IMG/VR virus record: IMGVR_UViG_3300010397_000041
Location: 1 to 64,000 of that record
Strand: one strand, 5' to 3'
Source of the DNA: a virus
DNA: 64,000 nt
Numbering within the stretch: the stretch's first letter is position 1; the number at the start of each line of letters is the position of its first letter. The notes below the pieces were generated by a model. That model was not told where the DNA came from. It worked only from the letters and a program-made list of their open reading frames with translations, and made no database searches. The translations under genes and the position numbers were made by a program. Of this stretch, positions 7,451-55,665 are shown piece after piece.

Positions 7451-7878
7451 GCGGTATCCGCCGCGAGCACCGGCTGGTGCTCGCGATGCCCTGCCCAGTC
7501 GTCGACCTCCATGCCGAACTAGGCCACCTCGCCGACGGCATGCAGCTCGTCAATGTCGCGCTCGCCGCCGAAGACGACAAGCCGATCATCATCGATGACC
7601 TCACCACTGTCGTGCTGGTCGTCAAGTCGGGCACGCAGCGTGAGACGGCCGGCGAAACCGACGAGGAGCCGGTACCGGCGAGTACCGGCACCGCCGCCCC
7701 GGTACCGGCCGGTACCGGCGAGTACCGGCCCCGGACCGAGCTGGGCCGGCTCGCGCTCGAAGCCGAAAAGGCACATGCCGAGGGCATCGTCACCACCGGG
7801 GAGGAACTCCGCCAGCACCTCAACATCAGCAAGGAAGCAGCAGTCGTCTTCTGGCGTCACCTGGGCAAACCCGCGTGA
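7447..7878 (+). CDS. Hypothetical protein with possible C-terminal HTH; contains GTACCGGC repeats
   Basis: Coupled to both neighbours; TGEELRQHLNISKEAA resembles an HTH. Confidence 0.6.
   Translation: MSGIRREHRLVLAMPCPVVDLHAELGHLADGMQLVNVALAAEDDKPIIIDDLTTVVLVVKSGTQRETAGETDEEPVPASTGTAAPVPAGTGEYRPRTELGRLALEAEKAHAEGIVTTGEELRQHLNISKEAAVVFWRHLGKPA
7672..7729 (+). repeat. Five GTACCGGC 8-mers on a 10-bp register (candidate clt/TraB recognition site)
   Basis: Copies at 7672, 7682, 7702, 7712, 7722. Confidence 0.75.
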
Positions 7879-10052
7879 GCGGGGCCGGCCCCAAGGAAGC
7901 GGCCGGCCAGGACGAGGCGAGTACCAGCCCGGTACTCGCCTCCGCCGACGTTGCACGGATCGTCGACGGCGAGGTCAGCCACCGGTCCGATCCGCGGCGT
8001 TGGCACTGGGCCGACCGGATCATCGTCATCGGCCGTCTCCGGCCCCGCGACCCCGACGACGCCAGCCCGGTACCCGGAATACGCCTCGCTCTCGTCACGC
8101 TCCGTGTCGTCTGGCGGGTCGGCCACGGTCATCGGGTCATCGCCGGCCGGGCGTGGGACGCCGCCACGCACGCCGCGATCCGCGAGCAGATCCGCTCCGC
8201 GCGGGCCGCTGGCGACCACGAGCGTCTCGGCGTGTGGATCGACCGGCACGGCGAGGCCAAGGCCGCCCGCCGGCAGCGGATCCGCGAACTCCCGGCCGTC
8301 GCCGGCGCGCTGACCGTCGGCGCGACCGCCGCCACAGCCGCGGCTGGGACCGCGGTCGGTGTCGGCGGCCTGGTCGTCGCGGCGCTGCACCCGGCCGGCT
8401 GGGGCTGGGACGACTGGTGGCACTTCTGGCACGCCGTCGTCAGCGCCGGCGCGACAGCAGTCGTGATTGTTCTCCGCGTCCTGCCCTGGGCGATCGTCCC
8501 AACCTGGGCGGCTGTCTTCTGGACGATCGGCCGCCTTGACGGACCCGTGCCCGGGTGGGCAATGGCCCCCGCCGAACTGGAGGAAGCACACAGCATGGTC
8601 ACCGCAGCCGGCCTCGCCGAGGCCCTCGCCCATCTCAGTATCCCCCCGCTGAACAAAGCGATCAAAGACGGCTGGCGGGTAGAGTTCTCCGTCCCGCCGG
8701 TCCGCGTCGGTAACCGCGGCTACCAGGTCGTGTTCTCCGTGCCGTTGGGTGTGACACCGGAAATGCTCGCCGACAAAAAGCCGGTACTGGCGCGGAATTT
8801 GTATCGGCATCCCACCGAAGTCTGGCCCGCCGCATCGGCACCCGGCTGGGTTGACCTTTGGGTGGCCGACCTGGGCGCCTCACAGCGGCCCGCCCCCGAA
8901 TACCCGCTGCTCCACGAAGGCACCGCGGATGTCTTCGAGGGCGTACCGGTCGGCGTCACCCAGCGCGGAGACCCGCTGCTGTTCCCGCTGGTCGGGGCGA
9001 ACTACTCCGCCGGCGGCCGAATGGGCCAGGGCAAGAGCAACCTGTGCCGGGTCATCATGCTCGGCGCCGCCCTCGACCCGCTCGCCCGCCTGCGGGTGCA
9101 TGTGTTCGCGGGCAACGGCGACTTCGACGCCTACGAGCCGCGCCTCGAGCTGTACAACCACGGCACCGACGAGACGGTCACCCGCGCCGGACTGGCCGAC
9201 CTGGAATGGCTGTACGAGGAGACCGGGCGACGCGAGGCCCGGCTCGCCGAGATCGGCGCGAAGAAAGTCACCCGCGGCGTTGCCGAGAAGTACCCGGATT
9301 TGGCACCGATCGTCGCGCTGTTTTCGGAATGCCATGAGCTGTTCGGCTGCACGAAGCCGCTTGACCCGGACGGGCCGAAGTCCGAGACGATCGGTAAGCG
9401 CGCCGGCGAGGTCGCGGTCAACACGCTGCGTCGCGCCCGCAAGACCGGGGTCGTCCTCGGCTTCGACACCCAGCAGGCCCGCGCCGACGCCATCCCCCCG
9501 AAAATCATCGGCCTTGTAGGGATCAACGCCTGCTTCTCCGTGAAGTCCTGGCGCGACAATGACGGTTTCCTGGGCGACGGCTCCTTCGCCGCCGGGATTC
9601 GGGCCACCGAGCTGCGGTTCAACATCGACCGGGGGACCTGCCTGGTCACCGGCGCTACAGCCGAGGTCTTCGAGATCGTGAAGACGCATTTCGTCGAGGT
9701 CGACGACGACTCCGGCTGGGACGCGGCCACCGAGGTCATCGAACGGGCGATGGCCGCGCTGAGCCCCGCTGTCGCCGCGACGCTCGGCGTGCCGATACCG
9801 GAGGCCGGCACTCGGGACCTGCTCGCGGACCTCGACGAGGCGCTGGGGACGGACGTGATCGCGAGCGCGGACGTGCCGGCGCTGCTGCGCGCGCTGGCAC
9901 CGGACTGGCCGGCGTACCGGTCGCTGTCCGGTGTGCAGCTGCGCGCGGACCTCGCCGACCTCGGCGTGAAGGTGCCCAGCACGGGGAACCGGTGGCCGCT
10001 GGACCCGGCTGTCGTCCGAGCGGCGCTCGCGCGGCGCGACGCGACCGAGTGA
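7875..10052 (+). CDS. traB: FtsK/SpoIIIE-family DNA translocase, TraB-like (actinomycete conjugative transfer)
   Basis: N-terminal TM helices; Walker A GGRMGQGKSN; Walker B-like IVALFSECHELF; RRARKTGV; TQQ; C-terminal wHTH-like region. Confidence 0.85.
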   Translation: MSGAGPKEAAGQDEASTSPVLASADVARIVDGEVSHRSDPRRWHWADRIIVIGRLRPRDPDDASPVPGIRLALVTLRVVWRVGHGHRVIAGRAWDAATHAAIREQIRSARAAGDHERLGVWIDRHGEAKAARRQRIRELPAVAGALTVGATAATAAAGTAVGVGGLVVAALHPAGWGWDDWWHFWHAVVSAGATAVVIVLRVLPWAIVPTWAAVFWTIGRLDGPVPGWAMAPAELEEAHSMVTAAGLAEALAHLSIPPLNKAIKDGWRVEFSVPPVRVGNRGYQVVFSVPLGVTPEMLADKKPVLARNLYRHPTEVWPAASAPGWVDLWVADLGASQRPAPEYPLLHEGTADVFEGVPVGVTQRGDPLLFPLVGANYSAGGRMGQGKSNLCRVIMLGAALDPLARLRVHVFAGNGDFDAYEPRLELYNHGTDETVTRAGLADLEWLYEETGRREARLAEIGAKKVTRGVAEKYPDLAPIVALFSECHELFGCTKPLDPDGPKSETIGKRAGEVAVNTLRRARKTGVVLGFDTQQARADAIPPKIIGLVGINACFSVKSWRDNDGFLGDGSFAAGIRATELRFNIDRGTCLVTGATAEVFEIVKTHFVEVDDDSGWDAATEVIERAMAALSPAVAATLGVPIPEAGTRDLLADLDEALGTDVIASADVPALLRALAPDWPAYRSLSGVQLRADLADLGVKVPSTGNRWPLDPAVVRAALARRDATE

Positions 10053-10211: not shown

Positions 10212-10772
10212 CTATCGCGACGCATCCCAGACAGCCCGGTTGATCACATAGACGTTGTTGTCTCGCCATGGTCCGACGGTGGCGACCTCGCGGAAGGTCA
10301 TCCCGAGTGTGCGCGCTACGCCGTTCATCCCGGAGTTGGCCTGGTCGGTGACGGTGACCATCTCGTCGAGGCCGAGCGACTCGAATCCGAAGGCGAGCGC
10401 GGCCCGGACGACCTCGGTGCCGAGGCCCTGGCCCCAACGGTCCCGGCGGATCGAGACCGCGACTTCGACGCCGGGCCAGCCTTCGGCGTAGTAGGTGCCG
10501 CCGCGGCCGAGGAACTCGCCGGTCTGACGGTCCTCCAGTGCCCACATTCCGTGCCCCAGGATCGCCCACATGCCCGCGAGGTTCATGACCAGCCGTTCGG
10601 TGGCCGCGCGGTCGAACGTGCCGTTGAGATAGCGCATCGTCTCGGGGTCAGCGTTCATGGCCGCGTAGGGGTCGATGTCGCCGGCGCGCCACGCCCGCAG
10701 GATCAGCCGGTCGGTGATGACGGTAGGCACGGTGATGGTCGACGCCGTGCCGAAAGTCAGGCCACCGGTCAT
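10212..10772 (-). CDS. GNAT N-acetyltransferase, RimJ/RimL family
   Basis: TDRLILRAW; RWGQGLGTE acetyl-CoA motif; NSGMNGVARTLGM. Confidence 0.9.
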   Translation of the reverse strand: MTGGLTFGTASTITVPTVITDRLILRAWRAGDIDPYAAMNADPETMRYLNGTFDRAATERLVMNLAGMWAILGHGMWALEDRQTGEFLGRGGTYYAEGWPGVEVAVSIRRDRWGQGLGTEVVRAALAFGFESLGLDEMVTVTDQANSGMNGVARTLGMTFREVATVGPWRDNNVYVINRAVWDASR

Positions 10773-12007
10773 GAGGCGGCTGCTGGGAGGGCGAGCCGCG
10801 GGCGGGCATCGAGCCGTTCCCGATAGTCACGGACCGGTCCGAAGTCGCTGAACGCGCGGAACGCGACATCCACGTCTCTGATCTTCGTCGTCACGGACGC
10901 TGTGGGCTGGACGTCCAGCATGTCTACGACACGACCGGCGAGGGCGGCTGCCTCCTCGGGCTCCGGGTCATCGCGTGCCAGCAGCGCCGCCGAGAGTCCC
11001 AGCAGCGCGTGCCCGTGCTCCTCGAAGCCGACTGCCGTACCACTGTCGTACGCGCGGATAGCGGCACGTGCGAGTGGTTCAGCCTCTCGGCCCGCGCCGA
11101 TCCGCGCGAGGACTCCAGCGGCGAACATGTCAGCGCTCGCCGCTGAGAACGGCGATGCGCCGGGCCGTGCAGGGCGATCCACGACCGCGCCGTTCATCCG
11201 ATCGAGCGCGGCCCTGGCACCGGTCGCATCGCCCATGGCAGCAAGTGCGCGTGCTTCGTAGGCGGCGAGCCGGGCGCGGGTGTAGTCGTTGTCTGCGACG
11301 GCCGCGCCCCGACGGGCCTCGTCGGCGGCGTCTTGGTAGGCGTGCCCGTAGAAGGCCAGGGTGGACATCATCTCGGCGACCGACGCTGTCAGGACGGGGT
11401 CGTCGACCTGCTCGGCATGGTCTCCAGCGAGTGTGAGGAACTGACGCGACGTCGGGGTGGCGCCGAGGTTGAACGACAGGCGGCACATCATGTACGCGGA
11501 GTAGCCCGCGATCTTCTCCAGCCGGGTCTGGGTCTTCGCCAGGACCTTCCCGCCGTCCAGGTGCCGTTTGGCTGACCGCCAGGTCTCGTACACCTCTTCC
11601 GCCATCACCGTGTGGGGTGTCGTCGTGAAGGCAGCGGCGTGCCGGTTCACGGCGTCAGTGAGTTCCCAGAGCGTCAACGCGTCCGGGCCGCTTCCCGCGC
11701 GGTCGCGTCGATCTCGGTAAGTCTTGGCGGCGAGTAGACCAGCCGCCCCGAACTCGAACAGCTCACGCCTGTCCGTGGGACTCACCTCCCCGACGACCGC
11801 TCGCCGCAGCTCGGCGAGCTCGCCATCAGTTCCATGATAATGATCTAGCTTGCTGATCAGTTCCGGCGAGGGAACGGGCTCAGTCGGAGACTCGGCTCGG
11901 CTGATGCCCGTCCGATCGTGCTGGATGCGCCGCGCCAGCGCCTCCTGACTCAGGTTTCCCCTCAGCTCACGAATCCGCCTGGCAAGTGTCGCGCGTGGTG
12001 AGTCCAT
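10769..12007 (-). CDS. XRE-family HTH regulator with C-terminal TPR-like helical domain
   Basis: LARRIRELRGNLSQEALARRIQHDRTGISRAE; DRRELF linker; helical repeats. Confidence 0.85.
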   Translation of the reverse strand: MDSPRATLARRIRELRGNLSQEALARRIQHDRTGISRAESPTEPVPSPELISKLDHYHGTDGELAELRRAVVGEVSPTDRRELFEFGAAGLLAAKTYRDRRDRAGSGPDALTLWELTDAVNRHAAAFTTTPHTVMAEEVYETWRSAKRHLDGGKVLAKTQTRLEKIAGYSAYMMCRLSFNLGATPTSRQFLTLAGDHAEQVDDPVLTASVAEMMSTLAFYGHAYQDAADEARRGAAVADNDYTRARLAAYEARALAAMGDATGARAALDRMNGAVVDRPARPGASPFSAASADMFAAGVLARIGAGREAEPLARAAIRAYDSGTAVGFEEHGHALLGLSAALLARDDPEPEEAAALAGRVVDMLDVQPTASVTTKIRDVDVAFRAFSDFGPVRDYRERLDARPRLALPAAAS

Positions 12008-12040
12008 TCCACTCCCCCGGTCATTGTGCGCGGCGTGAAC

Positions 12041-12065
12041 AACACACCACAGCACAACACAACAC
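12041..12065. promoter_or_regulatory. Five tandem A(A/C/G)CAC pentamers upstream of the XRE gene, candidate operator
   Basis: aacac accac agcac aacac aacac in the divergent intergenic region. Confidence 0.5.
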
Positions 12066-12344
12066 GGCTGCACGTCTCGTCACCGCCTCACCACTGCGTG
12101 AAGGTGTCCATGCCGGCAATGGCGCCGGCGGGAGCACGGAGAGCCAGGCAGGCGCCGATCCATGACATGCCGACGCGGCCGTGCAAGCAAGGCACCGAAC
12201 TAATCTCCCGGCCGGTACTCCGGCTGCGGGCGGTGCCAACCGGGTCGAGCGGCGGAAGCCGCCCCAACCCCTTCACAGGCACCGCGTTCGCCCGGGTGAT
12301 GACCCAACCTCGGGCGGACGCGGAACCACCGCGCAGGAGGCATC

Positions 12345-13310
12345 GTGAACACCTCGCACCCCGCCGGCCCGGTGGCCGCTGCGGCCGTCGCCGCCCGCCT
12401 CGACAGTGCCGACACTCTCGACGCGCTCCGCCTCGAGCTGACGGCTCTCGCCGACGGATGGGAGACGACCTCGCCCGCCGTCGCCGCGCGTACGCTCTAC
12501 GACCTGGAGGCGCGGGCCCATGTCCTGTCCGCTGGGGTACGTAACGCGGACGCCGCCGCTGCCTGGGCGCATCTGCGCTGCCAGGTGTACGTCATGGAGT
12601 CGCAGTCGCTGATCGACCTTGGCCGGCCGCGGGACGCCTACCAATCGGCTGATGCCGCGCTGAAGCTCGCCGCCGCTTTGCACGACCCGGCGACTCAGGC
12701 GCATGCCGAGACGCTCGCCGCGACTGTCGCCCGGCAGGCCCACGCCCCCGCCAACCCGGCCCGTCTACTCACCGCGGCCTGTGACCGGGCTGGCGGCTCC
12801 TACGGTTCGGCGATCGCCCGCACCTGGCGTGCCGTCATCGTCGCGCGCAGCGGCGCTGTGGCCGGCCGGCAGCTCATGGACGCCGTGACCAGCGCCGAGG
12901 CCGCCGACCTCGGCACCGGCCGGACGGGGTTTGCGCTCGGCGGCTGGGATCCGGTCTGCCGGGACGCTCAGCTCGGCGCGGCGCTGGCAGCCACCGGCCT
13001 GCGCGGCCCGGCGCGTGAGCGGCTCGACCGGGCCGCCGCTGCCACCGGGCCCGGCGCCGACGGGACACTTGTGGCGCCGCGCCTGCACGCCCTAGTGCTG
13101 ATCTACCGGGCCCAGTCCGCAGCCGCCGCCGGCGACCTCGACGAGGCCCGACAGCTCGTCGGCCAGGCGTTCGCCGCCGCGGCCGGCCTCCCCTCGGCGC
13201 AGCTCGCTGCCGGCGCCCTGCGCATCGCGGTTCGAGCCGAAGCGCGCGGCGAGGACTGGAGCGACATCCGCGCCACCACGGACGGCATCGGGCTCGCTCT
13301 GTCCGCTTGA
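12345..13310 (+). CDS. TPR-like helical protein lacking HTH
   Basis: AGGAGG RBS; Ala-rich helical repeats resembling the sensor domain of XRE-TPR proteins. Confidence 0.65.
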   Translation: MNTSHPAGPVAAAAVAARLDSADTLDALRLELTALADGWETTSPAVAARTLYDLEARAHVLSAGVRNADAAAAWAHLRCQVYVMESQSLIDLGRPRDAYQSADAALKLAAALHDPATQAHAETLAATVARQAHAPANPARLLTAACDRAGGSYGSAIARTWRAVIVARSGAVAGRQLMDAVTSAEAADLGTGRTGFALGGWDPVCRDAQLGAALAATGLRGPARERLDRAAAATGPGADGTLVAPRLHALVLIYRAQSAAAAGDLDEARQLVGQAFAAAAGLPSAQLAAGALRIAVRAEARGEDWSDIRATTDGIGLALSA

Positions 13311-13478: not shown

Positions 13479-14483
13479 ATGACCCTGATCGACGACCGGC
13501 CGTCCACGCTGCACCGCATGCAGCTGGAGCTCACCGGACGCTGCCCGCTCAGCTGCTCGCACTGTTTCACCTCGTCTGGACCGACCGTGTCACACGGCAC
13601 GATGACGACCGGAGACTGGCTGGCCGTCGTCGAGCAGGCCGCCGGCGTCGGCGCGAGGGCGGTGCAGCTCATCGGCGGCGAGCCGACGACCAGCCCCGCT
13701 TTCGTGCCGGTGCTCGAGCGTGCGTTGGATCTCGGCTTGGAGGTGGAGGTGTTCTCGAACCTCCATTTCCCCGCCCGGCTGTGGGAGTTGCTGGCCCGGC
13801 CGGGGGTGACGCTCGCAACCTCCTACTACGACGTCAACCCGGCAGTTCACGACCAGGTCACCAACCGACCTGGCAGCCACGCCCGCACCCGGTCGCGGAT
13901 CGTCGAGGCGCTCGCCCTGCAGGTCCCGATCCGGGTCGCGGTCATCGAGGTCGTCGACGGGCAGGACGTCGAGGCAACCCGGGCAGAGCTGGTCGCCCTC
14001 GGCATCCCCGAGACGCTGATCCAGGTCGACCGGATGCGCGGGATCGGCCGCGGCGCCGGCGGTGCGGCCTTCAACCCGGCCGAGCTGTGCGGATCCTGCG
14101 GCCATGGCCGGGCGGCCGTGCTGCCCGACGGGACGCTCGCGCCGTGCACGATGGGCCGGGCCCTGGCCGCCGGCAACGTCCGCACCGCCCCGCTCGACGA
14201 GCTGCTCGCCGGCGAGCTGTGGGCAGAGGCGCTGGCGCTGGTACCGCCAAAGCTGGCGACTCAGTGCTCGCCGAAGACCGACGGCTCGGACTGCGGGCCG
14301 CGAGAGCAGACCTGCACACCGGGAACGGAATGCCAGCCCGGAACGAGTTCCTGCGGGCCATCGAAGAACTTTGCTCTGCTCCCCGTTCACGCGGTGACAG
14401 GCTGCACGCCGCACGACGGGTCGGACTGCGACCCGTCCGGACAGACGGCCTGCGCGCCCGACTTCGACGACGCCGGCGCATGA
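13479..14483 (+). CDS. Radical SAM protein with SPASM/twitch domain and Cys-rich CxP-repeat tail
   Basis: CPLSCSHC (CxxxCxxC); GGEP; CGSC...VLPDGTLAPC; tail with 8 CxP motifs. Confidence 0.9.
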   Translation: MTLIDDRPSTLHRMQLELTGRCPLSCSHCFTSSGPTVSHGTMTTGDWLAVVEQAAGVGARAVQLIGGEPTTSPAFVPVLERALDLGLEVEVFSNLHFPARLWELLARPGVTLATSYYDVNPAVHDQVTNRPGSHARTRSRIVEALALQVPIRVAVIEVVDGQDVEATRAELVALGIPETLIQVDRMRGIGRGAGGAAFNPAELCGSCGHGRAAVLPDGTLAPCTMGRALAAGNVRTAPLDELLAGELWAEALALVPPKLATQCSPKTDGSDCGPREQTCTPGTECQPGTSSCGPSKNFALLPVHAVTGCTPHDGSDCDPSGQTACAPDFDDAGA

Positions 14484-15634
14484 TGGCCGACGACGAGCCG
14501 TGGCGGCCGGACGCTCGCGGCCTGGCCGATACGGTGACCCATCCCGGGTCACGCTGGTGGCCGGTGGTCGCCGCAGTCCCCCGGCATGTGTTCGTCCCGG
14601 CCTGGTGGGTGTGGGGCGACGACGGCTGGTTCCTTCGGTACGGCCCGACCGGCGCCTACCAGAACCGGTCGCTGGTAACCCGTGTCGGCAAGGCCCACGC
14701 AGACTTCGCAGGCAAGGCGGACCGGCCGACGGGCGATCCGACGTCGTCGTCGACGGAGCCGGGGCTGCTGCTGACGATGTACCGCCACGCCCAGCTAGCC
14801 ACCGGGCTCGACATCCTCGATGTCGGCACCGGGTCCGGCTACGGGGCGGCGCTGCTCGCGACCCGGTACGGCGATGAGCGGGTCACGACGGTCGACGTCG
14901 ACCCTTACCTAGTCGAGGCGGCGGCCGGTCGGCTTGCCGACGTCGGACTGACGCCCGAGGTGGGGATTGTCGACGCGACCGGCCCGCTTCCCGGCAGCTT
15001 CGATCGGATCGTGGCGACCGTGTCGGTCCGGTCGATCCCCCCGTCGTGGCTGGACGCGCTGAGGCCCGGCGGCCGGCTCGTCACGACGATAAGCGGAACG
15101 TGGATGATCCTCACCGTCGCGAAGCAGGCGAACGGTGAGATCCGCGGCCAGGTCGCCCGCGACTGGGCCGGTTTCATGCCCACCAGGCACGGCGACAACT
15201 ACCCGCCGGCCGGCGTCGACGTCGACGACCTTCTGAAACGGGAGGGCGAGCAGGTCAGCGCCGGCTGCTACCCGGTCCTCGACATCGCCGACGCCTGGGA
15301 GCTGTCGACGATGCTCGCGATCGCCGCCGGCGTCGACATCGAGCACCGTTACATCCCGCCCGGCCCCGACGGCACGCACACGGCGCTACTGGCCCACCCG
15401 GACGGCTCCTGGGCCCGGGCTACCGCCATCGGCACAGCACAGCCACAGGTCCACCAGGGCGGCCCGCGCCGCCTGTGGGACGTCCTCGATCAGGTTCGGG
15501 ACGACTGGCTGCGCATGGGTATGGCACCGTGGATCGGCGCTAACGCCCTGGTGAGGCCGGACGGCGCCGTGGTCCTCGCGCGGGGCAGCTGGCGGGCAAC
15601 GATCCCCGCCGCCCCGAGACAGGCAAGAACTTAG
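14480..15634 (+). CDS. Protein-L-isoaspartate O-methyltransferase-like (RiPP-associated PIMT)
   Basis: AVPRHVFVP; PTSSSTEPG; LDVGTGSGY; FDRIVATV; LRPGGRLV; QGGPRRLWD; ATGA coupling to rSAM. Confidence 0.88.
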   Translation: MMADDEPWRPDARGLADTVTHPGSRWWPVVAAVPRHVFVPAWWVWGDDGWFLRYGPTGAYQNRSLVTRVGKAHADFAGKADRPTGDPTSSSTEPGLLLTMYRHAQLATGLDILDVGTGSGYGAALLATRYGDERVTTVDVDPYLVEAAAGRLADVGLTPEVGIVDATGPLPGSFDRIVATVSVRSIPPSWLDALRPGGRLVTTISGTWMILTVAKQANGEIRGQVARDWAGFMPTRHGDNYPPAGVDVDDLLKREGEQVSAGCYPVLDIADAWELSTMLAIAAGVDIEHRYIPPGPDGTHTALLAHPDGSWARATAIGTAQPQVHQGGPRRLWDVLDQVRDDWLRMGMAPWIGANALVRPDGAVVLARGSWRATIPAAPRQART

Positions 15635-17953: not shown

Positions 17954-18032
17954 GAGCTTCTCCTGCAGGTGGTTGACGTGGCTGCTGGGTGGCACGCCGG
18001 CCGCCCTGGGTGGGCGGCCGGCGCTGGCCCTG

Positions 18033-18314
18033 TTAGGGCCGGTCGGAATCGGTCGAGCGGAGCCGTTCCACCTCGGCGGCGGCGCCGGTCAGGCGCCGGG
18101 CGAGCGATGCTGCCCGAGTCTTGCCTGCGCGGCGCTGGGAGAACATCCCGATCAGCATGCGAGCCATGTCGCGTGCCTCATCGGGTGTCAGCCAGGCCAC
18201 GCGGGTCGGCAGGCCCTCTCCGTCGATGTAGGTGACTCGCACCATCCAGCGTCCGTCGTCCCAGGGGTCGACGCTGCGGGCTGCTGCGATCTCGACGCGA
18301 TCCGAATCGAACAT
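18033..18314 (-). CDS. Small hypothetical protein (beta3-alpha)
   Basis: GAGAGGAG RBS within the left arm of the inverted repeat. Confidence 0.65.
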   Translation of the reverse strand: MFDSDRVEIAAARSVDPWDDGRWMVRVTYIDGEGLPTRVAWLTPDEARDMARMLIGMFSQRRAGKTRAASLARRLTGAAAEVERLRSTDSDRP

Positions 18315-31492: not shown

Positions 31493-33892
31493 TCAGGCGA
31501 TCTGCAACCCGTTGTTGATGTTGCGGCGTTGGTTGCGCAAAGCCTGTTTCTGCACGATCCGGAACAGGGTCACACCGTCGACCTGGACGACAATGTCCGG
31601 CGGCTGCTGAGACCCGCGACTCCCCCCGCCGCTGGTCGCCGAGCCCCAGGATGAGGCGGAGCCGACCCAGCCGCCCGATGCCTTCCCGCCGGCGAGGATC
31701 GATCGGGTCTGGCTGGCGGTGTGGATGTAGGCCGAGCCGCCGAACACCGCCAGCTCCGGGCCGCGCTCGCCGACCAAGACGGCGCGGCCGACCGGTGGGG
31801 AACCTCCCTCGGCGAACGGCAGGATCTTGTTCGCTTTGCCGATGATCCCGCCGACTTTGCCTGCCGCGGTGGAGATCAGACCGATCCCTTTACCGATCAC
31901 ATCGAAAATCGGTTTCAGGAACTTCCACGCCACATCGACCGTGTCCTTGATCCCGCGCCACAGGAGATCCCAGCCGGCTTTGAACAGTCGCAGCTGGGCG
32001 CCGATGAACAGGTCGAGTCCGGTGCCGATCAGATGGAACGTCGGCCCGAGCAGGTTTTTCCACGCCCAGGAGACGACCGAGCTTAGAATGTTCCAGCCGA
32101 TCCGCCAGGCGCCCACAAACAGCCGCAGCGCGAAACCGAGGATCACATCGAACGCGGCGGCGATCAGATGAAACGTCGGGCTGATGACGGTCCGCCACGC
32201 CCACAGCACCGTCGGAATGATCATCGCACGGAATAGCCAGATCCACATGGCGGCTTGCAGACGCAGCGGGATCAGTAGAATGTTAAGCCCGGTAGCGATG
32301 CCGCGAAAGACGGGTTGGAGAAAACGCCAGGTGGCCTGCGCCGCGTCGACGATCTGCTTGTGGAAAAATCGCCAGGCCAGCAGGAAAGGTGCTAGCGGCA
32401 AGATCAGGATCGCGGCGACGATCTCCCAGTTTTTCTTCAGCCAGCCAATCGTGTCCCGCCAGCCGACCTTCATCCAGCCCCAGAAATCCGACAGCCAGCG
32501 TTTCACCGTCGACCAGTGCTTCACAATTTCGTAGATCGCCACACCCAGGGCCACAACGGCGGCGATCACCAGGAACACCGGGTTCACAGCGAACGCCGCC
32601 TCGGACTCCTCTCCGGCCAAGATGAAGTCTTTGGCCGCCAGCAGCACGGCCTTCCCCATCTGGGCGGCACTCTTGGCGACATTCGCCATCCAGACGACGA
32701 TCGACAGGGCCATCAGCGCGCCGATCGCGGCGACCAGACCCTCGGTGATGTTCTTGTGACGGGCGAACCAGTCCCCGAGGGCCGTCAACGGCGGGATCAG
32801 TTTGTTTCCGATTTGAATGCCCAGCGACTCGGCCGAAGCCTTCAAACGGTCGACTTTGTTCTTGAAAGTGTCCTGAGTGGCCGCCCACGACGCGGCGAAC
32901 TGATTACCGCCCCTGTCGACTTCCTCATACTTGTTCTGCAACTTGTCGTACTGGTCCATGAGCACATTGACGCCAGTGCCCGCCTTCTTGCCGAACATTG
33001 TCGTCAATACGGCGCCAGCCTGGGTGCCGGTGATCCCAGCCTTCTGCAGTCGGTCGTGCAGGTCGGTCAGCGCCTTGTTCAGGCCACCGGTCTGCATGTC
33101 TTTCGCCAGGGTCTTGCTGGTCAAGCCAAGCGCGGCGAGCTGCTCGCGCGCCGCCTTACCGGCCGCAGGTGTTGCCAGCGCCTGCACGGACATCCGCAAC
33201 GCGGTACCAGCGGCAGCACCGCGAATGTTGTTGTCACCGAAAAGCGCCAACGCGGCCGAGGCGTCGCGCATCGACAGGCCGTAGCCCTTGATGACCGCGA
33301 TCATGCCGCCGCCCATCGCGTCGGCAAGGTCTTGCATGTGCATGTCACCGGCGCCGACGGTGGCGTTGAGCATTCCCATCGCCTTGTCAAGGTTCTCGTC
33401 GCCAGGTATCTGGGCGGTCATCGCGGCGCCGAGCGCGTTGGTGACGTCGACCAGGTTCGCGCCGCCGATCTTGGCACCTTCGGCGGACGTTTTGAGCAGC
33501 GCCATTGCCTTGGCGCCGGTCAGCCCTGTGCCGGCGAACTGCGATTCGATGTGGTAAAGCGCCTCGGCCAGCGAGTCGGGGCCTTCACCGACCTGCCCGG
33601 CGAGTTTGAGGACGCCGTTGGACAGGCCCTTGATCTGGTCCTGTGCCACACCGGCCTGGGTGTGAATCATCTCCATGGAGGCGTCGAAGTTCATCGCCAG
33701 ATGAACCGACTCGGCGCCTACACCGGCGAGGGCCAGGGCGCCGACTTTGCCGAAGGTGGAGAAAGCCTTGTTCATCGCGCCGAGCCGGCCCTCGGACTCG
33801 GAAATGCCCTTGGAAAGCTCGGCCGTATCGCCCACAAACTTGATCAGTACCGGCGGGAGGAGGCCTCCGAACTCACCCATGGGCCCCGCCAC
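31493..33892 (-). CDS. Tape measure protein (TP901-like core)
   Basis: FDASM...AEALYHIES...AAGTALR; aromatic-periodic repeats; FAEGG...VGERGPEL. Confidence 0.92.
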   Translation of the reverse strand: MAGPMGEFGGLLPPVLIKFVGDTAELSKGISESEGRLGAMNKAFSTFGKVGALALAGVGAESVHLAMNFDASMEMIHTQAGVAQDQIKGLSNGVLKLAGQVGEGPDSLAEALYHIESQFAGTGLTGAKAMALLKTSAEGAKIGGANLVDVTNALGAAMTAQIPGDENLDKAMGMLNATVGAGDMHMQDLADAMGGGMIAVIKGYGLSMRDASAALALFGDNNIRGAAAGTALRMSVQALATPAAGKAAREQLAALGLTSKTLAKDMQTGGLNKALTDLHDRLQKAGITGTQAGAVLTTMFGKKAGTGVNVLMDQYDKLQNKYEEVDRGGNQFAASWAATQDTFKNKVDRLKASAESLGIQIGNKLIPPLTALGDWFARHKNITEGLVAAIGALMALSIVVWMANVAKSAAQMGKAVLLAAKDFILAGEESEAAFAVNPVFLVIAAVVALGVAIYEIVKHWSTVKRWLSDFWGWMKVGWRDTIGWLKKNWEIVAAILILPLAPFLLAWRFFHKQIVDAAQATWRFLQPVFRGIATGLNILLIPLRLQAAMWIWLFRAMIIPTVLWAWRTVISPTFHLIAAAFDVILGFALRLFVGAWRIGWNILSSVVSWAWKNLLGPTFHLIGTGLDLFIGAQLRLFKAGWDLLWRGIKDTVDVAWKFLKPIFDVIGKGIGLISTAAGKVGGIIGKANKILPFAEGGSPPVGRAVLVGERGPELAVFGGSAYIHTASQTRSILAGGKASGGWVGSASSWGSATSGGGSRGSQQPPDIVVQVDGVTLFRIVQKQALRNQRRNINNGLQIA

Positions 33893-35141: not shown

Positions 35142-36359
35142 CTACTGGTAGGTGCCGGTCGGTGTAGCCGACTGCAAAGTGACCTTGATCGGGGAGTAGC
35201 CGCCGCTGGCCCCGGCGTCGGACGTGTTGGCGTCCGCTTCCAGGTCGGTTTCGACGGTGAGGTAGGTGCCGCCGCGTCCGAGCTTCGTGTTCTTGTAGAC
35301 GCACTTGGACATGTGCAGCTTCACCTGCACCAGCGCACTTCCAGTCCCCTCGGTGAAGTTGATGTCGACCGACGGGATCGTGACGTTCAAATAGCGGCGG
35401 ACCTCGGTCTCGTCCGCGGCGATGAACGTCAACTTGCCGGTGACCTCGACCGGGCCGAGCCACACGTTGTAGGGGCCCTGCGCGCCGTCGGTCGTGTGCT
35501 GGACCTTGACGTCGCGTTTGATGCTGATCTCACCCGACTCGGTGTACTGCACCGCCGAGCCGCCGAGCGTGACCACACCGGTCCACACCGGGATCGGTGT
35601 GGTGGTGGATGTCCAGGACGCGGTCGGCTTGGTGACGATGCCGCTGGGCCAGCCCGTCAGCTTGACGGTGTAGGTGAGAAGACCCTCACTGTTAAACGTG
35701 ATCGTCAGTTCGCTGACCACATGCCCCGGGTAGGCGCGGGCAGTGTTCGATCCGGCGAGGCCGGACTGGTAGTCGGTGACGGTGAGCGTCTCGGGCTGGC
35801 CGCCGCCGTAGTTCCCCGCAGAGTTCTTGATCGCGAACGTGTGGGTGTACGGAGCCGACCCACCCGAGCTCGTGTAGTCCCCGAGCAGCGCGCCCAGCCA
35901 GAAGCCGAACGACTCGGGGAACACGTCACCGGAGGCGCCGTACTCGCCGTGGATGACACCCGGCACCGTGCCGTAGTTGACGACCTCCGACCCCCGATAG
36001 CCGGTGTCCTTCAGCAGCGTCAGGTTGTCGAACGGCTCCGGCGGCTTCACCGGGATGAACATCGACGGGGCGTCGGCCGCCGCGGTCACCACGACCAGCA
36101 CCCCCGCCGTGTGGGCGTTGGCCAGCGCCGAGCAGGTGATCGTCGTGCCGGCGATCGCAGAGTAGGCCACCGTCTCGGTGAGCGTTCCCGCGGACGACGG
36201 GTCGTAGATCGTGATGAAGCCGGATGCCGGCCAACTCGTCGTGTCCGACACGACGATCGACGTCGCCGCCGCCGACACGGAGGTAGTCAGCAGCGACTTG
36301 TACTTGTCGAGCGCGACGCCGATATAGCTGAGATTGGATGCCTGGCCTGGCGCGCCCAT
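35142..36359 (-). CDS. Major tail tube protein with inserted beta-domain
   Basis: FGFWLGALLG; YTHTF; TLTVTDY; GKLTF; position. Confidence 0.85.
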   Translation of the reverse strand: MGAPGQASNLSYIGVALDKYKSLLTTSVSAAATSIVVSDTTSWPASGFITIYDPSSAGTLTETVAYSAIAGTTITCSALANAHTAGVLVVVTAAADAPSMFIPVKPPEPFDNLTLLKDTGYRGSEVVNYGTVPGVIHGEYGASGDVFPESFGFWLGALLGDYTSSGGSAPYTHTFAIKNSAGNYGGGQPETLTVTDYQSGLAGSNTARAYPGHVVSELTITFNSEGLLTYTVKLTGWPSGIVTKPTASWTSTTTPIPVWTGVVTLGGSAVQYTESGEISIKRDVKVQHTTDGAQGPYNVWLGPVEVTGKLTFIAADETEVRRYLNVTIPSVDINFTEGTGSALVQVKLHMSKCVYKNTKLGRGGTYLTVETDLEADANTSDAGASGGYSPIKVTLQSATPTGTYQ

Positions 36360-46480: not shown

Positions 46481-48466
46481 CTATGCGGCGGCGGGCGGGT
46501 CCAGCGCGTCGAGCTGCCGCTGAATCTCGGCCCGCATCGCCGGGTCGGCGCCGGGGGCGTCACGCATCGCGCGCAGCACGCCCTTCTTCACGTCCGCCTC
46601 CGCTGTCTTTGCGAGCTCGGCGGGCGACACCGGAGGCTGCACTCGCGTCCTGGCAGGGCCGCCCGGCCTCGGCGTCTCGTGCAGCGTGGCCTTCACCTCT
46701 GCCAGCCCCTGCGCGAGGGGCTCCATGGCCTTCGTGATGGCGTCGCCGAACTGCGCCGCGAGGTCGGCACTCACCCGTGCGGTGATCGCCTTCGTCAGCG
46801 TATCGGTGTCGGTGGTGCTGGCCGCCTTCGCCATGTCAGGCTCGGCGGGGGTCTCGGTGCCGGCCTCGCCGGCGTGGGTCGCGGCCGCGGCCGCGGCCGC
46901 CTTCTTCAGGCGCTTCCGCATCTTCTTCGCGGCCTTTTCGGCGGCAGCCTTCATCAGGTCGGGGGTGCCGGCCTTCTCGGCGCCGTCCTCGGTCGGCTCG
47001 GACAGCGCGCCGGCGTCAGGCTCGGTCATGTGCTTGATCTCCATGGCTTCGTTCCTCATGAACCAGGTCACGAGCTCCGCCGCCTGCGCGAGCAGCGCGA
47101 TGTCCGCCACCTCGCCGAGCTCGCCGAGGAACAGGCCCATCGCCTCGGAGCGGATCAGGCACGCCAGGCCCTGGATGACGGCCTTCGCGGCCGCGATGTC
47201 GTCCATCTCGGACGCGGCCGCGGCGTTGTCGGTGAGCTGCAGCCCGCCTTCGTCGCCGTCGTCGGCCTTGACCACGTCGGGCGCCGTAGCCTTCTCCTTC
47301 GGCTTGGTGGAGCCGGGCCAGTCGGCGGGCAGCAGGTCCGTCGCGTCGAGGGCCTTTGCGCGATCGGTGATGTGCTTCTTCGCGGCCGCCGGGTCCTTCG
47401 CACGGCCGAACGCCTGGATCGCGTCGTTGAGCTGGGCCCGGTTCTGGATCGGGAACCCGCCCGACGGCATCGCCTCGCCCGCGGCGGCCGCGTCCTCGCG
47501 CTCGCCGGCGGTGAACTTCCGCTTCTCGAGCTCGGTGGCGACCGCCTTGATCAGCGTGTCGAAGTCGGGCTCGACGGCCTTGCTCGAGGACTTCGCGCTG
47601 CCGGTGTCGTCGGCGTCCTCGCTGTCGGGCTTGCCGTCCCCGTCGTCGTCCTCATCGTCCCGGTTGTGGACACCGTCGCCGTCAGGGTCGGAGCCGCCCT
47701 GGCCGCCGTCCTCCGATTGGAAGGGCTTGGCCTTCCGGCCACCGAACTTGCCGGCCTTCTTCCGCTTCGCCAGCGTCTCCGGATCCGCGGCGTCCGGGTC
47801 GTCAGGGTTGGCGACGACGGAGGGGGCGGTGAGCTGGTCGACCAGGGCGGCGGTCATCGGCAGCACCCGACCATCCGAGGTCTTGAGCAGCATCTGTGGG
47901 CCGGGCGCGACAGGGACCGCATCGACCGCCTTCTCGACCTCGTCGCCTTCGACGAACTCGGGGCTGTCGACGAGGTCGAGCGAGCCGGTCGCCTTGTTCA
48001 GCGCGGCCATGCGAAACAGCGCCGACGGCAGCGAGGGCCGGTCGACGGCGCTGACTTCGATCACGTCGCCCCGGCAAACCTTCCCGTTGGGCGCGTCGGT
48101 GGCCTTGGCAAGGCCGTAGTTCGCGACACCGACCGAGAATCCGGTCAGGATTCCGTGCTCGATCTTCGCTTCGGCGACCGGGTCGACGATCTTCGCCCGC
48201 ATGTGCCACGAGTGGTCGTCGGTCTCCCAGACCTCGACCGCCTTACCAATCGGCCGTTGGGCCGAGTGGCCCTCGCGGACATTCCCACCTGACGGCCCGT
48301 GCATGTACGCCGGGATCGCGGCCTTGAGCCACGTCGGGTCCATGCGCTGGCCGTCGGAGTCCAGGTCCGGGCCGGTGAACTTGCCCTCTACCCAGAGGAT
48401 GCCGGCTTCGTCGCGTTCCTTGCGCAGGAACGGGGTGTAGATGTCCAGACGCTCAGCAACGGGCAT
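46481..48466 (-). CDS. Prohead protease fused to scaffold (with AMPSGGFPI domain)
   Basis: DSDGQ; NVREGH; IGKA; GILTGFSVG; IEVSAVDRPS; AMPSGGFPIQN...LNDAIQAFGRA; helical scaffold C-terminus. Confidence 0.85.
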   Translation of the reverse strand: MPVAERLDIYTPFLRKERDEAGILWVEGKFTGPDLDSDGQRMDPTWLKAAIPAYMHGPSGGNVREGHSAQRPIGKAVEVWETDDHSWHMRAKIVDPVAEAKIEHGILTGFSVGVANYGLAKATDAPNGKVCRGDVIEVSAVDRPSLPSALFRMAALNKATGSLDLVDSPEFVEGDEVEKAVDAVPVAPGPQMLLKTSDGRVLPMTAALVDQLTAPSVVANPDDPDAADPETLAKRKKAGKFGGRKAKPFQSEDGGQGGSDPDGDGVHNRDDEDDDGDGKPDSEDADDTGSAKSSSKAVEPDFDTLIKAVATELEKRKFTAGEREDAAAAGEAMPSGGFPIQNRAQLNDAIQAFGRAKDPAAAKKHITDRAKALDATDLLPADWPGSTKPKEKATAPDVVKADDGDEGGLQLTDNAAAASEMDDIAAAKAVIQGLACLIRSEAMGLFLGELGEVADIALLAQAAELVTWFMRNEAMEIKHMTEPDAGALSEPTEDGAEKAGTPDLMKAAAEKAAKKMRKRLKKAAAAAAATHAGEAGTETPAEPDMAKAASTTDTDTLTKAITARVSADLAAQFGDAITKAMEPLAQGLAEVKATLHETPRPGGPARTRVQPPVSPAELAKTAEADVKKGVLRAMRDAPGADPAMRAEIQRQLDALDPPAAA

Positions 48467-52936: not shown

Positions 52937-53470
52937 TTAGAAGATGCTGCGGCCGCCGCGTGGCGCGCCGGGCGCTTCTCTCATCAGCTGGTCGAGGCCG
53001 CGTCGCTCCCGGTGCCGTTTCCGGTGCTGCCGATCGTCCTGGCCGCCCGGCGTCGCTGCCTTGACCGCCGGTGCCGGCTGGTGGTGCAGCCTCGGCGGAT
53101 CGAGCGGCACAGGCTTCGGCGCGGCTTTGGCCTGCGCTCGCCGCACTGCGTCGTCGGCCGCCAGTTCCCCGGCCGCCCAGCCGGCCCGGTAGCAGTCCCT
53201 CAGAGCCGGGCCCAACGCGCCTTTGCGGGCGTGTTGGTCGAGGATCAGCCGGATCTCGTGCCGCAGGATCTGCGGGTCGGTGGTCGTCCCGCCGGGCCAG
53301 CGGGCCGCGAGGACGCGGGCGACGGCTTCCGGGTCAATAAGTCGGCTGGCAGCCTGGGATACCCGCTCGGCGTAGCGCGGGTTCAGCGCGTCGTGCGCCT
53401 GGAAGCCGATCCACTGCGCCCGCTCCCTGGTCAGGTCGCGGGCTTGCGGCTCGCCCCCCGCCACCACCAC
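52937..53470 (-). CDS. MuF N-terminal-like segment overlapping the portal end (possible frameshift fusion)
   Basis: LGPALRDCYRAGWAAGELAA; 137-nt overlap with portal across a G6 run. Confidence 0.55.
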   Translation of the reverse strand: MVVAGGEPQARDLTRERAQWIGFQAHDALNPRYAERVSQAASRLIDPEAVARVLAARWPGGTTTDPQILRHEIRLILDQHARKGALGPALRDCYRAGWAAGELAADDAVRRAQAKAAPKPVPLDPPRLHHQPAPAVKAATPGGQDDRQHRKRHRERRGLDQLMREAPGAPRGGRSIF

Positions 53471-55643: not shown

Positions 55644-55665
55644 GGGGCCACCTCGCGCGCCTTGG

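What the first reader, a model, noticed from the sequence alone, without database searches (positions are those of the whole stretch)
13479..15634. Radical SAM with fused precursor-like tail plus PIMT-like methyltransferase: candidate self-substrate RiPP on a mobile element
Seen: after the SPASM/twitch domain, the tail (14265-14483) has eight CxP motifs and two near-repeats, CSPKTDGSDCGP..QTCTP and CTPHDGSDCDP..QTACAP. It is translationally coupled to a PIMT homologue, and no separate precursor gene was found nearby. Established: SPASM rSAMs form Cys thioether links in sactipeptides/ranthipeptides; RiPP PIMT homologues convert Asp to aspartimide/isoAsp in lanthi-, lasso and graspetides, and Asp-Gly is a favoured site. 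Inference: the enzyme cross-links its own tail and PIMT modifies the DG Asp.
Basis: partly seen in the sequence, partly recalled or inferred. Interest (0 to 1): 0.78.

Follow-up and report, generated by a model that had tools for sequence, protein, structure and literature searches.

The report
Radical SAM enzyme carrying its own substrate tail
A soil phage carries a two-gene cassette, common in actinomycetes, in which a radical SAM enzyme ends in a floppy, highly variable Cys-x-Pro tail that is probably the long-missing substrate of both that enzyme and the aspartate methyltransferase encoded next to it.

Summary
The 334-aa radical SAM (rSAM) protein (13479-14483) ends in a 72-residue tail. 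All 8 tail Cys sit in C-x-P (0 of 200,000 shuffles match this), and there are two DGSDC-containing near-repeats. Its stop overlaps (ATGA) the start of a 384-aa PIMT-type methyltransferase.

This pair is the "rSAM-PAMT" two-gene cluster that Lee et al. 2023 reported 249 times without finding a substrate.

New here:
- **Family-wide tail signature.** 94% of 1,517 tail Cys in 258 relatives are C-x-P, against 1.5% of core Cys.
- **Tail behaviour.** Tails are disordered in AF2, hypervariable, and carry 0-55 motifs, often as tandem repeats.
- **No leader recognition and no precursor.** The enzyme has no N-terminal stretch where SkfB's extra ~100 residues lie. No conserved separate precursor gene exists in 80 loci.
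- **Partner tracks tail.** 78 of 80 methyltransferase-linked tails carry D-[G/S]-x0-2-C. None of 17 tails without the methyltransferase do, and 9 of those have an APH-type kinase instead.

This favours a fused-substrate system but rests on few independent evolutionary events. The chemistry (thioether, aspartimide) is untested. The carrier is a complete 92-kb tailed phage.

Verdict: a new variant of a known kind, and worth a bench test.

The parts
13479..14483 (+). Radical SAM gene, 334 aa. Core enzyme is residues ~8-263, followed by the C-terminal tail.
   Evidence: ORF. Pfam Radical_SAM and SPASM. AF2 core pLDDT 85-98. Best fold matches are SkfB, SuiB, EpeE, PqqE and CteB.
13542..13565 (+). 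CxxxCxxC motif (C22, C26, C29) for the SAM-binding [4Fe-4S] cluster.
   Evidence: Invariant in a 30-sequence alignment.
14088..14147 (+). C204-x2-C207-x15-C223, the predicted single auxiliary-cluster (twitch-like) motif.
   Evidence: Invariant Cys. Start of the Pfam SPASM match. Assignment as ligands is an inference.
14265..14480 (+). Cys-x-Pro tail, residues 263-334, with 8 CxP motifs. Proposed fused substrate.
   Evidence: 8/8 Cys in CxP and 0/200,000 shuffles. AF2 pLDDT 31-46. Family-wide, 94% of tail Cys are in CxP.
14265..14321 (+). Tail unit A: CSPKTDGSDCGPREQTCTP (C263, C272, C279). C263 may instead be an auxiliary-cluster ligand.
   Evidence: Matches the family unit C-x-P-x(2-4)-D-[GS]-x-D-C-x-P-x(5)-C-x-P.
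14403..14459 (+). Tail unit B: CTPHDGSDCDPSGQTACAP (C309, C317, C325).
   Evidence: Conserved in the closest homologues P0002 and P0003.
14280..14294 (+). First DGSDC. Asp268-Gly269 is a candidate methylation/aspartimide site.
   Evidence: Asp followed by G/S is near-invariant in the unit: 52/53 and 44/44.
14415..14429 (+). Second DGSDC. Asp313-Gly314 is a candidate methylation/aspartimide site.
14480..14483 (+). ATGA overlap of the rSAM stop and the methyltransferase start.
   Evidence: Sequence read.
14480..15634 (+). PIMT-type protein Asp O-methyltransferase (PAMT), 384 aa, with an extra C-terminal domain.
   Evidence: PF01135 E 4.5e-15. TIGR04188 matches residues 22-351 to profile positions 12-349 of 363, 225.7 bits. 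PDB PIMTs match residues 81-224 only. Found directly downstream of the rSAM in 71/80 genome loci.
14756..15154 (+). PIMT-like SAM-binding domain of the methyltransferase, residues 93-225.
   Evidence: Pfam PCMT stretch.
10769..12073 (-). HTH plus NsdA-family TPR regulator-like gene. Neighbour only; not shown to belong to the system.
   Evidence: HTH_31 E 3.6e-8. NsdA_fam_reg 81 bits. Similar regulators flank some homologous cassettes.
12345..13310 (+). TPR-like gene directly upstream. Neighbour only.
   Evidence: Weak NsdA_fam_reg hit, 28.5 bits and below cutoff. No homologue in the 80 loci.

Best explanation
This is a phage-borne copy of a widespread actinomycete two-gene cassette. The first gene encodes a peptide-modifying radical SAM enzyme of the twitch/SPASM type. 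It has no leader-recognition domain and carries its substrate covalently: a disordered, hypervariable, repeat-prone C-terminal tail whose hallmark is Cys-x-Pro.

Proposed order of events (all steps inferred):
1. The rSAM acts on the tail Cys residues, in cis or on a neighbouring copy. The most likely product is Cys-to-carbon thioether rings that constrain each ~20-residue unit.
2. The PIMT-type methyltransferase then methylates the conserved Asp of D-[G/S]-x-D-C in the constrained unit. That gives a methyl ester that collapses to aspartimide/isoAsp, as PAMTs do on other pre-shaped RiPPs.

Whether the modified tail stays on the protein or is cut off as a peptide is unknown.

Shown here: the anatomy, the conservation, the co-occurrence, and the absence of a conserved precursor gene. 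Inferred: that the tail is the substrate, the order of steps, and the chemistry.
For: 1. **The pair is the only conserved unit.** The methyltransferase lies directly downstream in 71/80 genome loci. All-against-all clustering of 9,287 ORFs finds no other conserved gene. No small ORF carries a tail-like motif.
2. **The substrate is a published open question.** Lee et al. [quoted passage not shown]
3. **CxP is a family-wide tail signature.** 1,430 of 1,517 tail Cys (94%) are in CxP, against 27 of 1,796 core Cys. Pro makes up 12% of tail residues.
4. **Tails behave like core peptides, not cofactor sites.** They carry 0-55 CxP per protein and include tandem repeats, as in P0131, P0230, P0249 and P0188 (55/55). 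The unit occurs in 1-3 copies. AF2 gives tail pLDDT 31-46 beside a confident core.
5. **No N-terminal recognition domain.** The query aligns from residue 15 to SkfB profile position 107. The best fold matches are peptide maturases: SkfB, SuiB, EpeE, PqqE, CteB.
6. **Partner enzyme tracks tail chemistry.** D-[GS]-x0-2-C occurs in 78/80 methyltransferase-linked tails and 0/17 others (Fisher p 4.5e-17). Of those 17, 9 carry an APH-family kinase instead.
7. **Fits known PAMT logic.** The conserved Asp is followed by Gly or Ser, as in the lanthimiditide TXDGC motif. RiPP PAMTs act only on modified or folded substrates (PMC13001092).
8. **Chemical and architectural precedents exist.** PapB makes Cys-X3-Asp/Glu thioethers (PMC9413430). 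CrpC cross-links a Cys-rich protein (PMC13692751). Borosins and BURP cyclases carry enzyme-fused core peptides.
Against: - The partner/tail correlation is not phylogenetically independent. The tree needs only about 6 changes of the methyltransferase label, of which 4 are forced by well-supported branches. Most tails lacking the methyltransferase sit in one region of the tree.
- A tail-less homologue exists in a Mycobacterium abscessus prophage, 47% identical and with no tail Cys at all. So the core can have another substrate or none. Its nearest relatives in Mycobacteriales genomes do have CxP tails.
- No protease or exporter is conserved nearby, so a released peptide is not indicated.
- Invariant C263 sits where a fourth auxiliary-cluster ligand would be expected.
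- Cys-rich tails could bind metal, as in cysimiditides.
- Neither enzyme's chemistry is shown by any data here.
Confidence: 0.5

Rival explanations
1. The tail is a metal-binding (Fe-S, Zn or Cu) or redox appendage and is not covalently modified by the rSAM. The rSAM's true substrate is elsewhere. The methyltransferase may still act on a metal-folded tail, as in cysimiditides, or on another protein.
For: - The tail is Cys-rich.
- C263 is invariant and aligns near the end of the Pfam SPASM profile.
- Cysimiditide PAMTs need a Zn-tetracysteine hairpin with the Asp between the Cys motifs (PMC13001092).
- A tail-less homologue exists.
Against: - Copy number runs from 0 to 55 CxP with irregular spacing and tandem repeats. 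That does not fit a defined cofactor site.
- There are no CxxC-type motifs.
- AF2 gives no fold for the tail even in a minimal single-unit member.
- Pro at +2 is conserved far more strongly than metal ligation would require.
- No other candidate substrate is conserved nearby.
Confidence: 0.2
2. The tail is the substrate, but the chemistry is not thioether formation. For example, the rSAM could oxidise Cys in C-x-P to formylglycine or a thioaldehyde, as anaerobic sulfatase-maturating enzymes do on C/S-x-P-x-R. It could also epimerise or otherwise modify the residues.
For: - CxP is the first three residues of the sulfatase motif (own knowledge).
- anSME is among the fold matches.
- EpeE, an epimerase, ranks above it.
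- Single-cluster twitch enzymes can be dehydrogenases, as BtrN is (own knowledge; BtrN is also a fold match).
Against: - None of the 8 window motifs has Arg at +4.
- The full two-cluster SPASM of anSME is not present: only 3-4 conserved Cys.
- The closest sequence and fold relatives are SkfB-type cross-linkers.
Confidence: 0.12
3. The cassette is a conflict system (defence, anti-defence or exclusion) that acts in trans on a foreign or host protein or nucleotide. The tail would be a sensor, decoy or docking arm rather than a product.
For: - The cassette is carried by a phage, by about 20 IMG/VR contigs and by 43 plasmid records. A relative sits beside the integrase of a mycobacterial prophage.
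- Flanks are variable-region genes: XRE/DUF397/HATPase_c_2, DUF6415, DUF6879 and AAA_21.
- There are weak PADLOC hits: pVip, mad2 and mad3.
Against: - The PADLOC hits cover only generic rSAM, methyltransferase and ATPase cores.
- Location on mobile elements does not say what the substrate is, and is compatible with a fused-substrate product that acts in conflict.
- This reading does not explain the tail/partner covariation.
Confidence: 0.12

Closest known systems
rSAM-associated PAMT gene clusters (Lee et al. 2023, Adv Sci, PMC10787088, section 2.3 and Fig. S13b)
   Same: Both are a two-gene unit in actinomycetes: a radical SAM enzyme plus a PIMT-type Asp O-methyltransferase with a C-terminal extra domain.
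   Different: That paper reports the pair as an orphan with no precursor or substrate found. It says nothing about the rSAM's C-terminal tail. Here the tail, its CxP signature and its covariation with the partner enzyme are described.
Aspartimidylated RiPPs: lanthimiditides, lassimiditides, graspimiditides, imiditides/pamtides, cysimiditides
   Same: Both use a PIMT homologue with an extra C-terminal domain. The target Asp is followed by a small residue (TXDGC in lanthimiditides; D-[G/S]-x-D-C here). In most of these classes the methyltransferase acts last, on a constrained substrate.
   Different: There is no lanthipeptide, lasso or ATP-grasp enzyme, and no separate 30-75-aa precursor. Instead of the CXXCXGXG Zn motifs of cysimiditides, the Cys are C-x-P spaced 7-9 residues apart. 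The constraining enzyme would be a radical SAM.
Sactipeptide and ranthipeptide maturases (SkfB, AlbA, CteB, PapB) and the protein cross-linker CrpC/CrpA
   Same: Both are rSAM enzymes with a C-terminal Fe-S domain, and SkfB is the best sequence and fold match. The substrates are Cys-rich, with Asp/Glu a few residues after Cys, like PapB's CX3D/E motifs. CrpC shows that a Cys-rich protein, not only a short peptide, can be the substrate.
   Different: This enzyme lacks the N-terminal stretch that precedes the rSAM core in SkfB. It has only 3-4 conserved Cys in the C-terminal domain, rather than the 7-Cys SPASM motif. Its putative substrate is fused to the enzyme instead of being a separate gene with a leader.
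Enzyme-fused core peptides: borosins (OphMA-type) and plant BURP-domain cyclases
   Same: In both, the core peptide is located at the end of the modifying enzyme and is modified autocatalytically, so no separate precursor gene exists.
   Different: The enzyme classes differ: an N-methyltransferase and a copper cyclase, respectively. My literature searches found no radical SAM example.
Anaerobic sulfatase-maturating enzymes (anSME)
   Same: Both are radical SAM enzymes acting on a Cys in a C-x-P context.
   Different: anSME has a two-cluster SPASM domain, the motif C/S-x-P-x-R and a separate sulfatase substrate. Here Arg at +4 is absent and there is no sulfatase.

Membership tests
Radical SAM superfamily | CxxxCxxC cluster motif in a partial TIM barrel | tested here: met
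   C22/C26/C29 are invariant. PF04055 scores 45.7 bits against a 29.5 cutoff. AF2 core is confident, and fold matches are rSAM enzymes.
SPASM-domain rSAM (two auxiliary clusters) | Seven-Cys motif CX9-15GX4C...CX2CX5CX3C...C | tested here: not met
   Only C204, C207, C223 and C263 are conserved after the barrel, and there is no CX2CX5CX3C. The Pfam SPASM hit is marginal at 23.8 bits. The domain is better described as twitch-like, with one predicted auxiliary cluster.
Sactipeptide/ranthipeptide maturase | N-terminal RRE (PqqD-like) leader-binding domain | tested here: not met
   The rSAM core starts at about residue 15, and the query aligns to SkfB from profile position 107. Pfam finds no domain other than Radical_SAM and SPASM.
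Sactipeptide/ranthipeptide maturase | Separate precursor peptide gene in the cluster | tested here: not met
   No conserved ORF other than the pair exists in 80 loci. No small ORF carries a tail-like motif.
Sactipeptide/ranthipeptide maturase | Cys S-to-carbon thioether product | not testable with these tools
   Needs mass spectrometry of the expressed protein.
RiPP-associated PAMT (aspartimidylating PIMT homologue) | PIMT-like SAM domain plus a 110-180-aa C-terminal domain absent from repair PIMTs | tested here: met
   PF01135 matches residues 93-225. TIGR04188 aligns residues 22-351 to profile 12-349 of 363. PDB repair PIMTs match only residues 81-224. The TIGR04188 score of 225.7 is below its cutoff of 380, so this is not a graspetide-system member.
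RiPP-associated PAMT (aspartimidylating PIMT homologue) | Adjacent substrate with a conserved Asp followed by a small residue | tested here: met
   D-[GS] occurs in 79/80 methyltransferase-linked tails, and D-[GS]-x0-2-C in 78/80. The Asp is near-invariant in the unit. That it is the methylated residue is an inference.
RiPP-associated PAMT (aspartimidylating PIMT homologue) | Methylates L-Asp to give aspartimide/isoAsp | not testable with these tools
   Needs an enzyme assay or MS.
Imiditide / type I pamtide | Stand-alone 30-75-aa Gly/Pro/Asp/Lys-rich precursor next to the methyltransferase | tested here: not met
   None was found within about 1.2 kb of the pair in 80 loci.
Cysimiditide / type II pamtide | Two CXXCXGXG Zn-binding motifs flanking the Asp | tested here: not met
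   Tail Cys are C-x-P with 7-9-residue spacing, and there is no CXXC.
anSME (formylglycine-forming) | Substrate motif C/S-x-P-x-R | tested here: not met
   CxP is present, but the +4 residues in the window are T, E, T, T, K, D, G and F.
Enzyme-fused RiPP precursor (borosin-like logic) | Core peptide is part of the modifying enzyme's polypeptide and is modified by it | tested here: inconclusive
   The fusion and its core-peptide-like variability are shown. Self-modification is not shown.

The most novel reading that the evidence does not exclude
The whole family (1,057 representative clusters at E<=1e-30) is a general 'enzyme with built-in substrate' platform.

- Leaderless radical SAM enzymes cross-link their own hypervariable Cys-x-Pro tails, which carry 1-55 motifs.
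- Tail-class-specific partners (PIMT-type methyltransferase, APH-type kinase) then tailor those tails.
- The cassettes travel on phages, plasmids and prophages.
- They yield either released RiPP-like peptides or armoured protein tails that act in phage-host or inter-element conflict.

This would be the first radical SAM RiPP class with an enzyme-fused precursor.
Probability: 0.3. Interest if true: 0.85.

Novelty: new variant of a known kind. Interest (0 to 1): 0.72.

Why it matters
An explicit published puzzle would be solved: what the 249+ rSAM-PAMT clusters act on. The proposed answer is one that precursor-hunting pipelines cannot find, because they look for small separate ORFs.

It would add radical SAM enzymes to the short list of RiPP-like systems with enzyme-fused substrates, alongside borosins and BURP cyclases. 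It would also show leader-free substrate delivery by tethering.

The C-x-P motif would be defined as a new radical SAM recognition element. The hypervariable tails would form a large natural library of putatively cross-linked peptides.

The idea is directly testable with one two-gene expression construct and mass spectrometry.

Tried and rejected
- **Complex prediction.** The methyltransferase with tail residues 255-334 gave no verdict (score 0.01 against a mark of 0.32). This is not evidence either way.
- **AF2 docking of the tail.** Two models were run, one of the window protein and one of a minimal single-unit member, each with its own alignment. Both left the tail at pLDDT below 55, with no confident docking into the barrel. 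This says nothing about docking.
- **ESM Atlas search with the tail alone.** All hits scored below 0.9 and TM was below 0.4. Nothing usable came out.
- **Sequencing runs.** The only holder is the probable source soil metagenome. No RNA holder is listed.
So I could not inspect the neighbourhoods of tail-less or one-Cys family members (P0037, P0164, P0267), or look for natural split forms (tail-less enzyme plus a separate CxP peptide gene).
- **Search in 401 genomes of one order with the tail-less prophage protein.** It found 14 genomes with relatives. Every complete relative had a CxP tail, and there were no split forms.
- **Small-ORF scan (12-90 aa) around 80 methyltransferase-linked cassettes.** It gave 33 ORFs with at least 2 CxP. 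They share no position, strand or motif, and none resembles the D-[GS]-x-D-C tail unit. I judge them chance products of GC-rich frames.
- **PADLOC.** The hits (pVip, mad2, mad3) cover only generic catalytic cores. I rejected them as evidence for a known defence system.
- **Earlier findings of this scan.** Nothing was returned.
- **Literature searches** for a radical SAM enzyme with a fused or self-modified tail found none. The library is incomplete, so this does not prove absence.
- **ICE/AICE reading of the carrier.** Rejected in favour of a tailed phage.
Full report
**1. What is in the sequence**

The + strand ORF 13479-14483 encodes a 334-aa protein.
- Pfam finds Radical_SAM at residues 17-157 and a marginal SPASM match at 204-263.
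- The SAM-cluster motif is C22/C26/C29. A second group, C204-x2-C207-x15-C223, follows the barrel.
- From residue 263 to the end there are eight more Cys, and every one is followed by x-Pro.
- Shuffling the 79 tail residues 200,000 times never reproduced eight CxP.
- Two near-repeat units each contain DGSDC: CSPKTDGSDCGPREQTCTP and CTPHDGSDCDPSGQTACAP.

The stop codon overlaps, as ATGA, the start of a 384-aa ORF (14480-15634).
- This ORF has a PIMT-like domain at residues 93-225 (PF01135, E 4.5e-15).
- It aligns almost end to end with NCBIfam TIGR04188, the 'ATP-grasp peptide maturase system methyltransferase'. The score is 225.7 bits, below the family cutoff of 380.
- Solved repair PIMTs match only residues 81-224. 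So the protein has the extra C-terminal domain typical of RiPP-associated PIMT homologues.

**2. The carrier**

The window is part of a 92,425-bp IMG/VR virus record with direct terminal repeats, rated 100% complete.
- It encodes a portal, large terminase, head protease, tape measure and minor tail protein.
- The only sequencing run holding the stretch is a soil metagenome, probably the source.

So the 'mobile element' is a tailed phage. The cassette lies in its non-structural arm, between HTH/TPR regulator-like genes (10769-12073 on the - strand, 12345-13310 on the + strand) and a small convergent ORF.

**3. The pair is widespread and already noted as an orphan**

- A word-based search gave 493 relatives of the rSAM, all from actinomycetes where a source name is given.
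- A profile search of 1.84 billion representatives gave 1,057 at E<=1e-30.
- In species-representative genomes, 588 loci encode a relative.
- In the best 80 loci, the methyltransferase lies immediately downstream in 71.
- Clustering all 9,287 ORFs of these loci shows that nothing else is conserved. The flanks are a changing mix of XRE/DUF397/HATPase_c_2 triads, NsdA-like regulators, DUF6415 and DUF6879.
- The pair also occurs on 43 plasmid records and about 20 viral contigs.

Lee et al. [quoted passage not shown] A 2026 review of aspartimide RiPPs does not mention radical SAM at all. The gene pair is therefore known, and its substrate is an open question.

**4. The tail is the family's signature and behaves like a substrate**

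- Across 258 family proteins, 1,430 of 1,517 tail Cys (94%) are in C-x-P. Only 27 of 1,796 core Cys are. Pro makes up 12% of tail residues.
- Tail length and content vary enormously, from 0 to 55 CxP per protein. Some tails are perfect tandem arrays, such as RCHPxVEVSAE about ten times in P0131, and 55 of 55 Cys in CxP in the 645-aa P0188.
- In the methyltransferase-linked branch, the recurring unit is C-x-P-x(2-4)-D-[G/S]-x-D-C-x-P-[A/S]-x-x-x-A-C-x-P-x-[Y/F]. It is present in one to three copies and often ends the protein.
- AF2 models the core at pLDDT 85-98 and the tail at 31-46.
- The core's best sequence and fold matches are peptide maturases: SkfB, SuiB, EpeE, PqqE and CteB.
- The protein begins at the barrel. 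It aligns to SkfB only from profile position 107, so it has no N-terminal leader-binding domain.
- A scan for small ORFs (12-90 aa) around 80 cassettes found nothing resembling the tail.

A site that merely ligates a cofactor would not vary from 0 to 55 copies. A tethered substrate would explain both the missing precursor and the missing recognition domain.

**5. The partner enzyme tracks the tail**

- Of 80 cassettes with the methyltransferase, 78 have D-[G/S]-x0-2-C in the tail. Of 17 complete loci without it, none has (Fisher p 4.5e-17).
- In 9 of those 17, the downstream gene is instead an APH-family kinase with an HGDLHWANL motif, sometimes with an AAA_21 ATPase. Their tails are CxP-rich but lack the acidic motif.
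- Caution: on a tree of the cores, the methyltransferase label needs only about six changes, four of them forced by well-supported branches. Most loci without the methyltransferase sit together. So the correlation reflects a handful of events, not 97.

The pattern fits what is known of RiPP PIMT homologues. They target one Asp followed by a small residue (TXDGC in lanthimiditides). They act only on substrates that are already cyclised or folded (PMC13001092).

**6. Most likely mechanism (inferred)**

1. The rSAM uses the 5'-deoxyadenosyl radical to modify its own tail at or next to the CxP Cys.
   - The most economical guess is Cys-to-carbon thioether rings.
   - SkfB-type enzymes are the nearest relatives.
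   - Each Cys is followed within a few residues by Asp, Glu/Asn or Tyr.
   - PapB makes Cys-X3-Asp/Glu thioethers with loose spacing (PMC9413430).
   - CrpC installs such links on a Cys-rich protein (PMC13692751).
2. The methyltransferase then methylates the Asp of D-G/S in the constrained unit. Here that would be Asp268 and/or Asp313, giving aspartimide or isoAsp.

Whether the tail is later released is unknown, since no protease or exporter is conserved. I put about 0.5 on 'the tail is the substrate of the cassette', and less on the specific chemistry.

**7. Rivals**

- **Metal or Fe-S binding appendage with the true substrate elsewhere (0.2).** C263 is invariant and sits where a fourth twitch-cluster ligand would be expected. 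Cysimiditides show that PAMTs can read a Zn-folded Cys hairpin. A Mycobacterium abscessus prophage homologue has no tail Cys at all, although its nearest relatives in Mycobacteriales genomes do.
- **Tail is the substrate but with other chemistry, such as anSME-like Cys oxidation at C-x-P (0.12).** The Arg of C-x-P-x-R is absent, and the two-cluster SPASM is not present.
- **A conflict system acting in trans (0.12).** The mobile-element habitat suggests this, but only generic PADLOC hits support it. It is also compatible with the main reading.

**8. Comparison and novelty**

- The system works like a sacti/ranthipeptide-plus-PAMT pathway. It fails three membership features of those maturases: the seven-Cys SPASM motif, the RRE, and a separate precursor.
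- It is not an imiditide, because there is no stand-alone precursor.
- It is not a cysimiditide, because there is no CXXCXGXG.
- Its logic is closest to borosins and BURP cyclases, where the core peptide is part of the enzyme.
- I found no radical SAM example in the searchable literature.

I rate it a new variant of a known kind. The gene pair is published. The fused CxP tail, its family-wide spread and its covariation with partner enzymes are, as far as I could find, not.

**9. What did not help**

- The complex prediction gave no verdict.
- The second AF2 model did not dock the tail.
- The Atlas search was uninformative.
- No RNA run is listed.

Noticed in passing
window 29108-57476 (- strand genes): Tailed-phage structural module. 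It includes tape measure (31493-33889), minor tail protein (35142-36356), head maturation protease (46481-48463), portal (53334-55802) and large terminase (55845-57476). The record is 92,425 bp with direct terminal repeats.
   Followed up: partly
window 17999-18086 (+): A tRNA-Asn (GTT) gene in the phage, about 2.4 kb downstream of the cassette.
   Followed up: no
window 7875-10052 (+): A 725-aa ORF with only a weak match to a phage FtsK/SpoIIIE-like family (phrog_1358, E 4e-6) and no Pfam hit. This is unusual cargo for a phage arm.
   Followed up: no
window 10212-12073 (-) and 12345-13310 (+): A GNAT acetyltransferase, an HTH plus NsdA-family TPR regulator-like gene, and a second weak NsdA-like TPR gene sit directly upstream of the cassette. 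NsdA-type regulators control development and antibiotic production in Streptomyces (own knowledge), so a phage carrying two is curious.
   Followed up: no
L035, L054, L056, L057, L060, L066, L093, L095, L100 (downstream of the rSAM): In family members without the methyltransferase, an APH-family kinase-like gene (HGDLHWANL motif) takes its place. In L056, L057, L066, L093 and L095 it is preceded by an AAA_21 ATPase whose best PADLOC hit is mad3. The tails in these loci are CxP-rich but lack the acidic motif.
   Followed up: partly
L007 6463-7920, L014 6424-7878, L018 6569-7855 (+): A ~430-aa protein with a P-loop (GDKGAGKTT) and no Pfam match lies directly upstream of the rSAM in several Streptomyces loci. 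A fragment of it is present in L037, which has lost the methyltransferase.
   Followed up: no
L033 8921-10090, L040 8915-10060, L067 8913-10052: The methyltransferase reading frame contains 1, 2 and 1 in-frame stops respectively in the tblastn match. These are possible pseudogenes or sequencing errors.
   Followed up: no
L081 2071-3516 (Mycobacterium phage prophi68-1, genes 78 and 77): A tail-less rSAM homologue (263 aa, no Cys after the C-x2-C...C motif) sits next to the prophage integrase. It is followed by a 128-aa protein annotated as 'RNA demethylase' instead of a methyltransferase.
   Followed up: partly
P0131, P0230, P0249, P0258, P0188 (family members from the profile search): Extreme tails. 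Some are perfect tandem repeats of 11-20-residue CxP units. One is a 645-aa protein whose ~400-residue tail has 55 Cys, all in CxP.
   Followed up: partly
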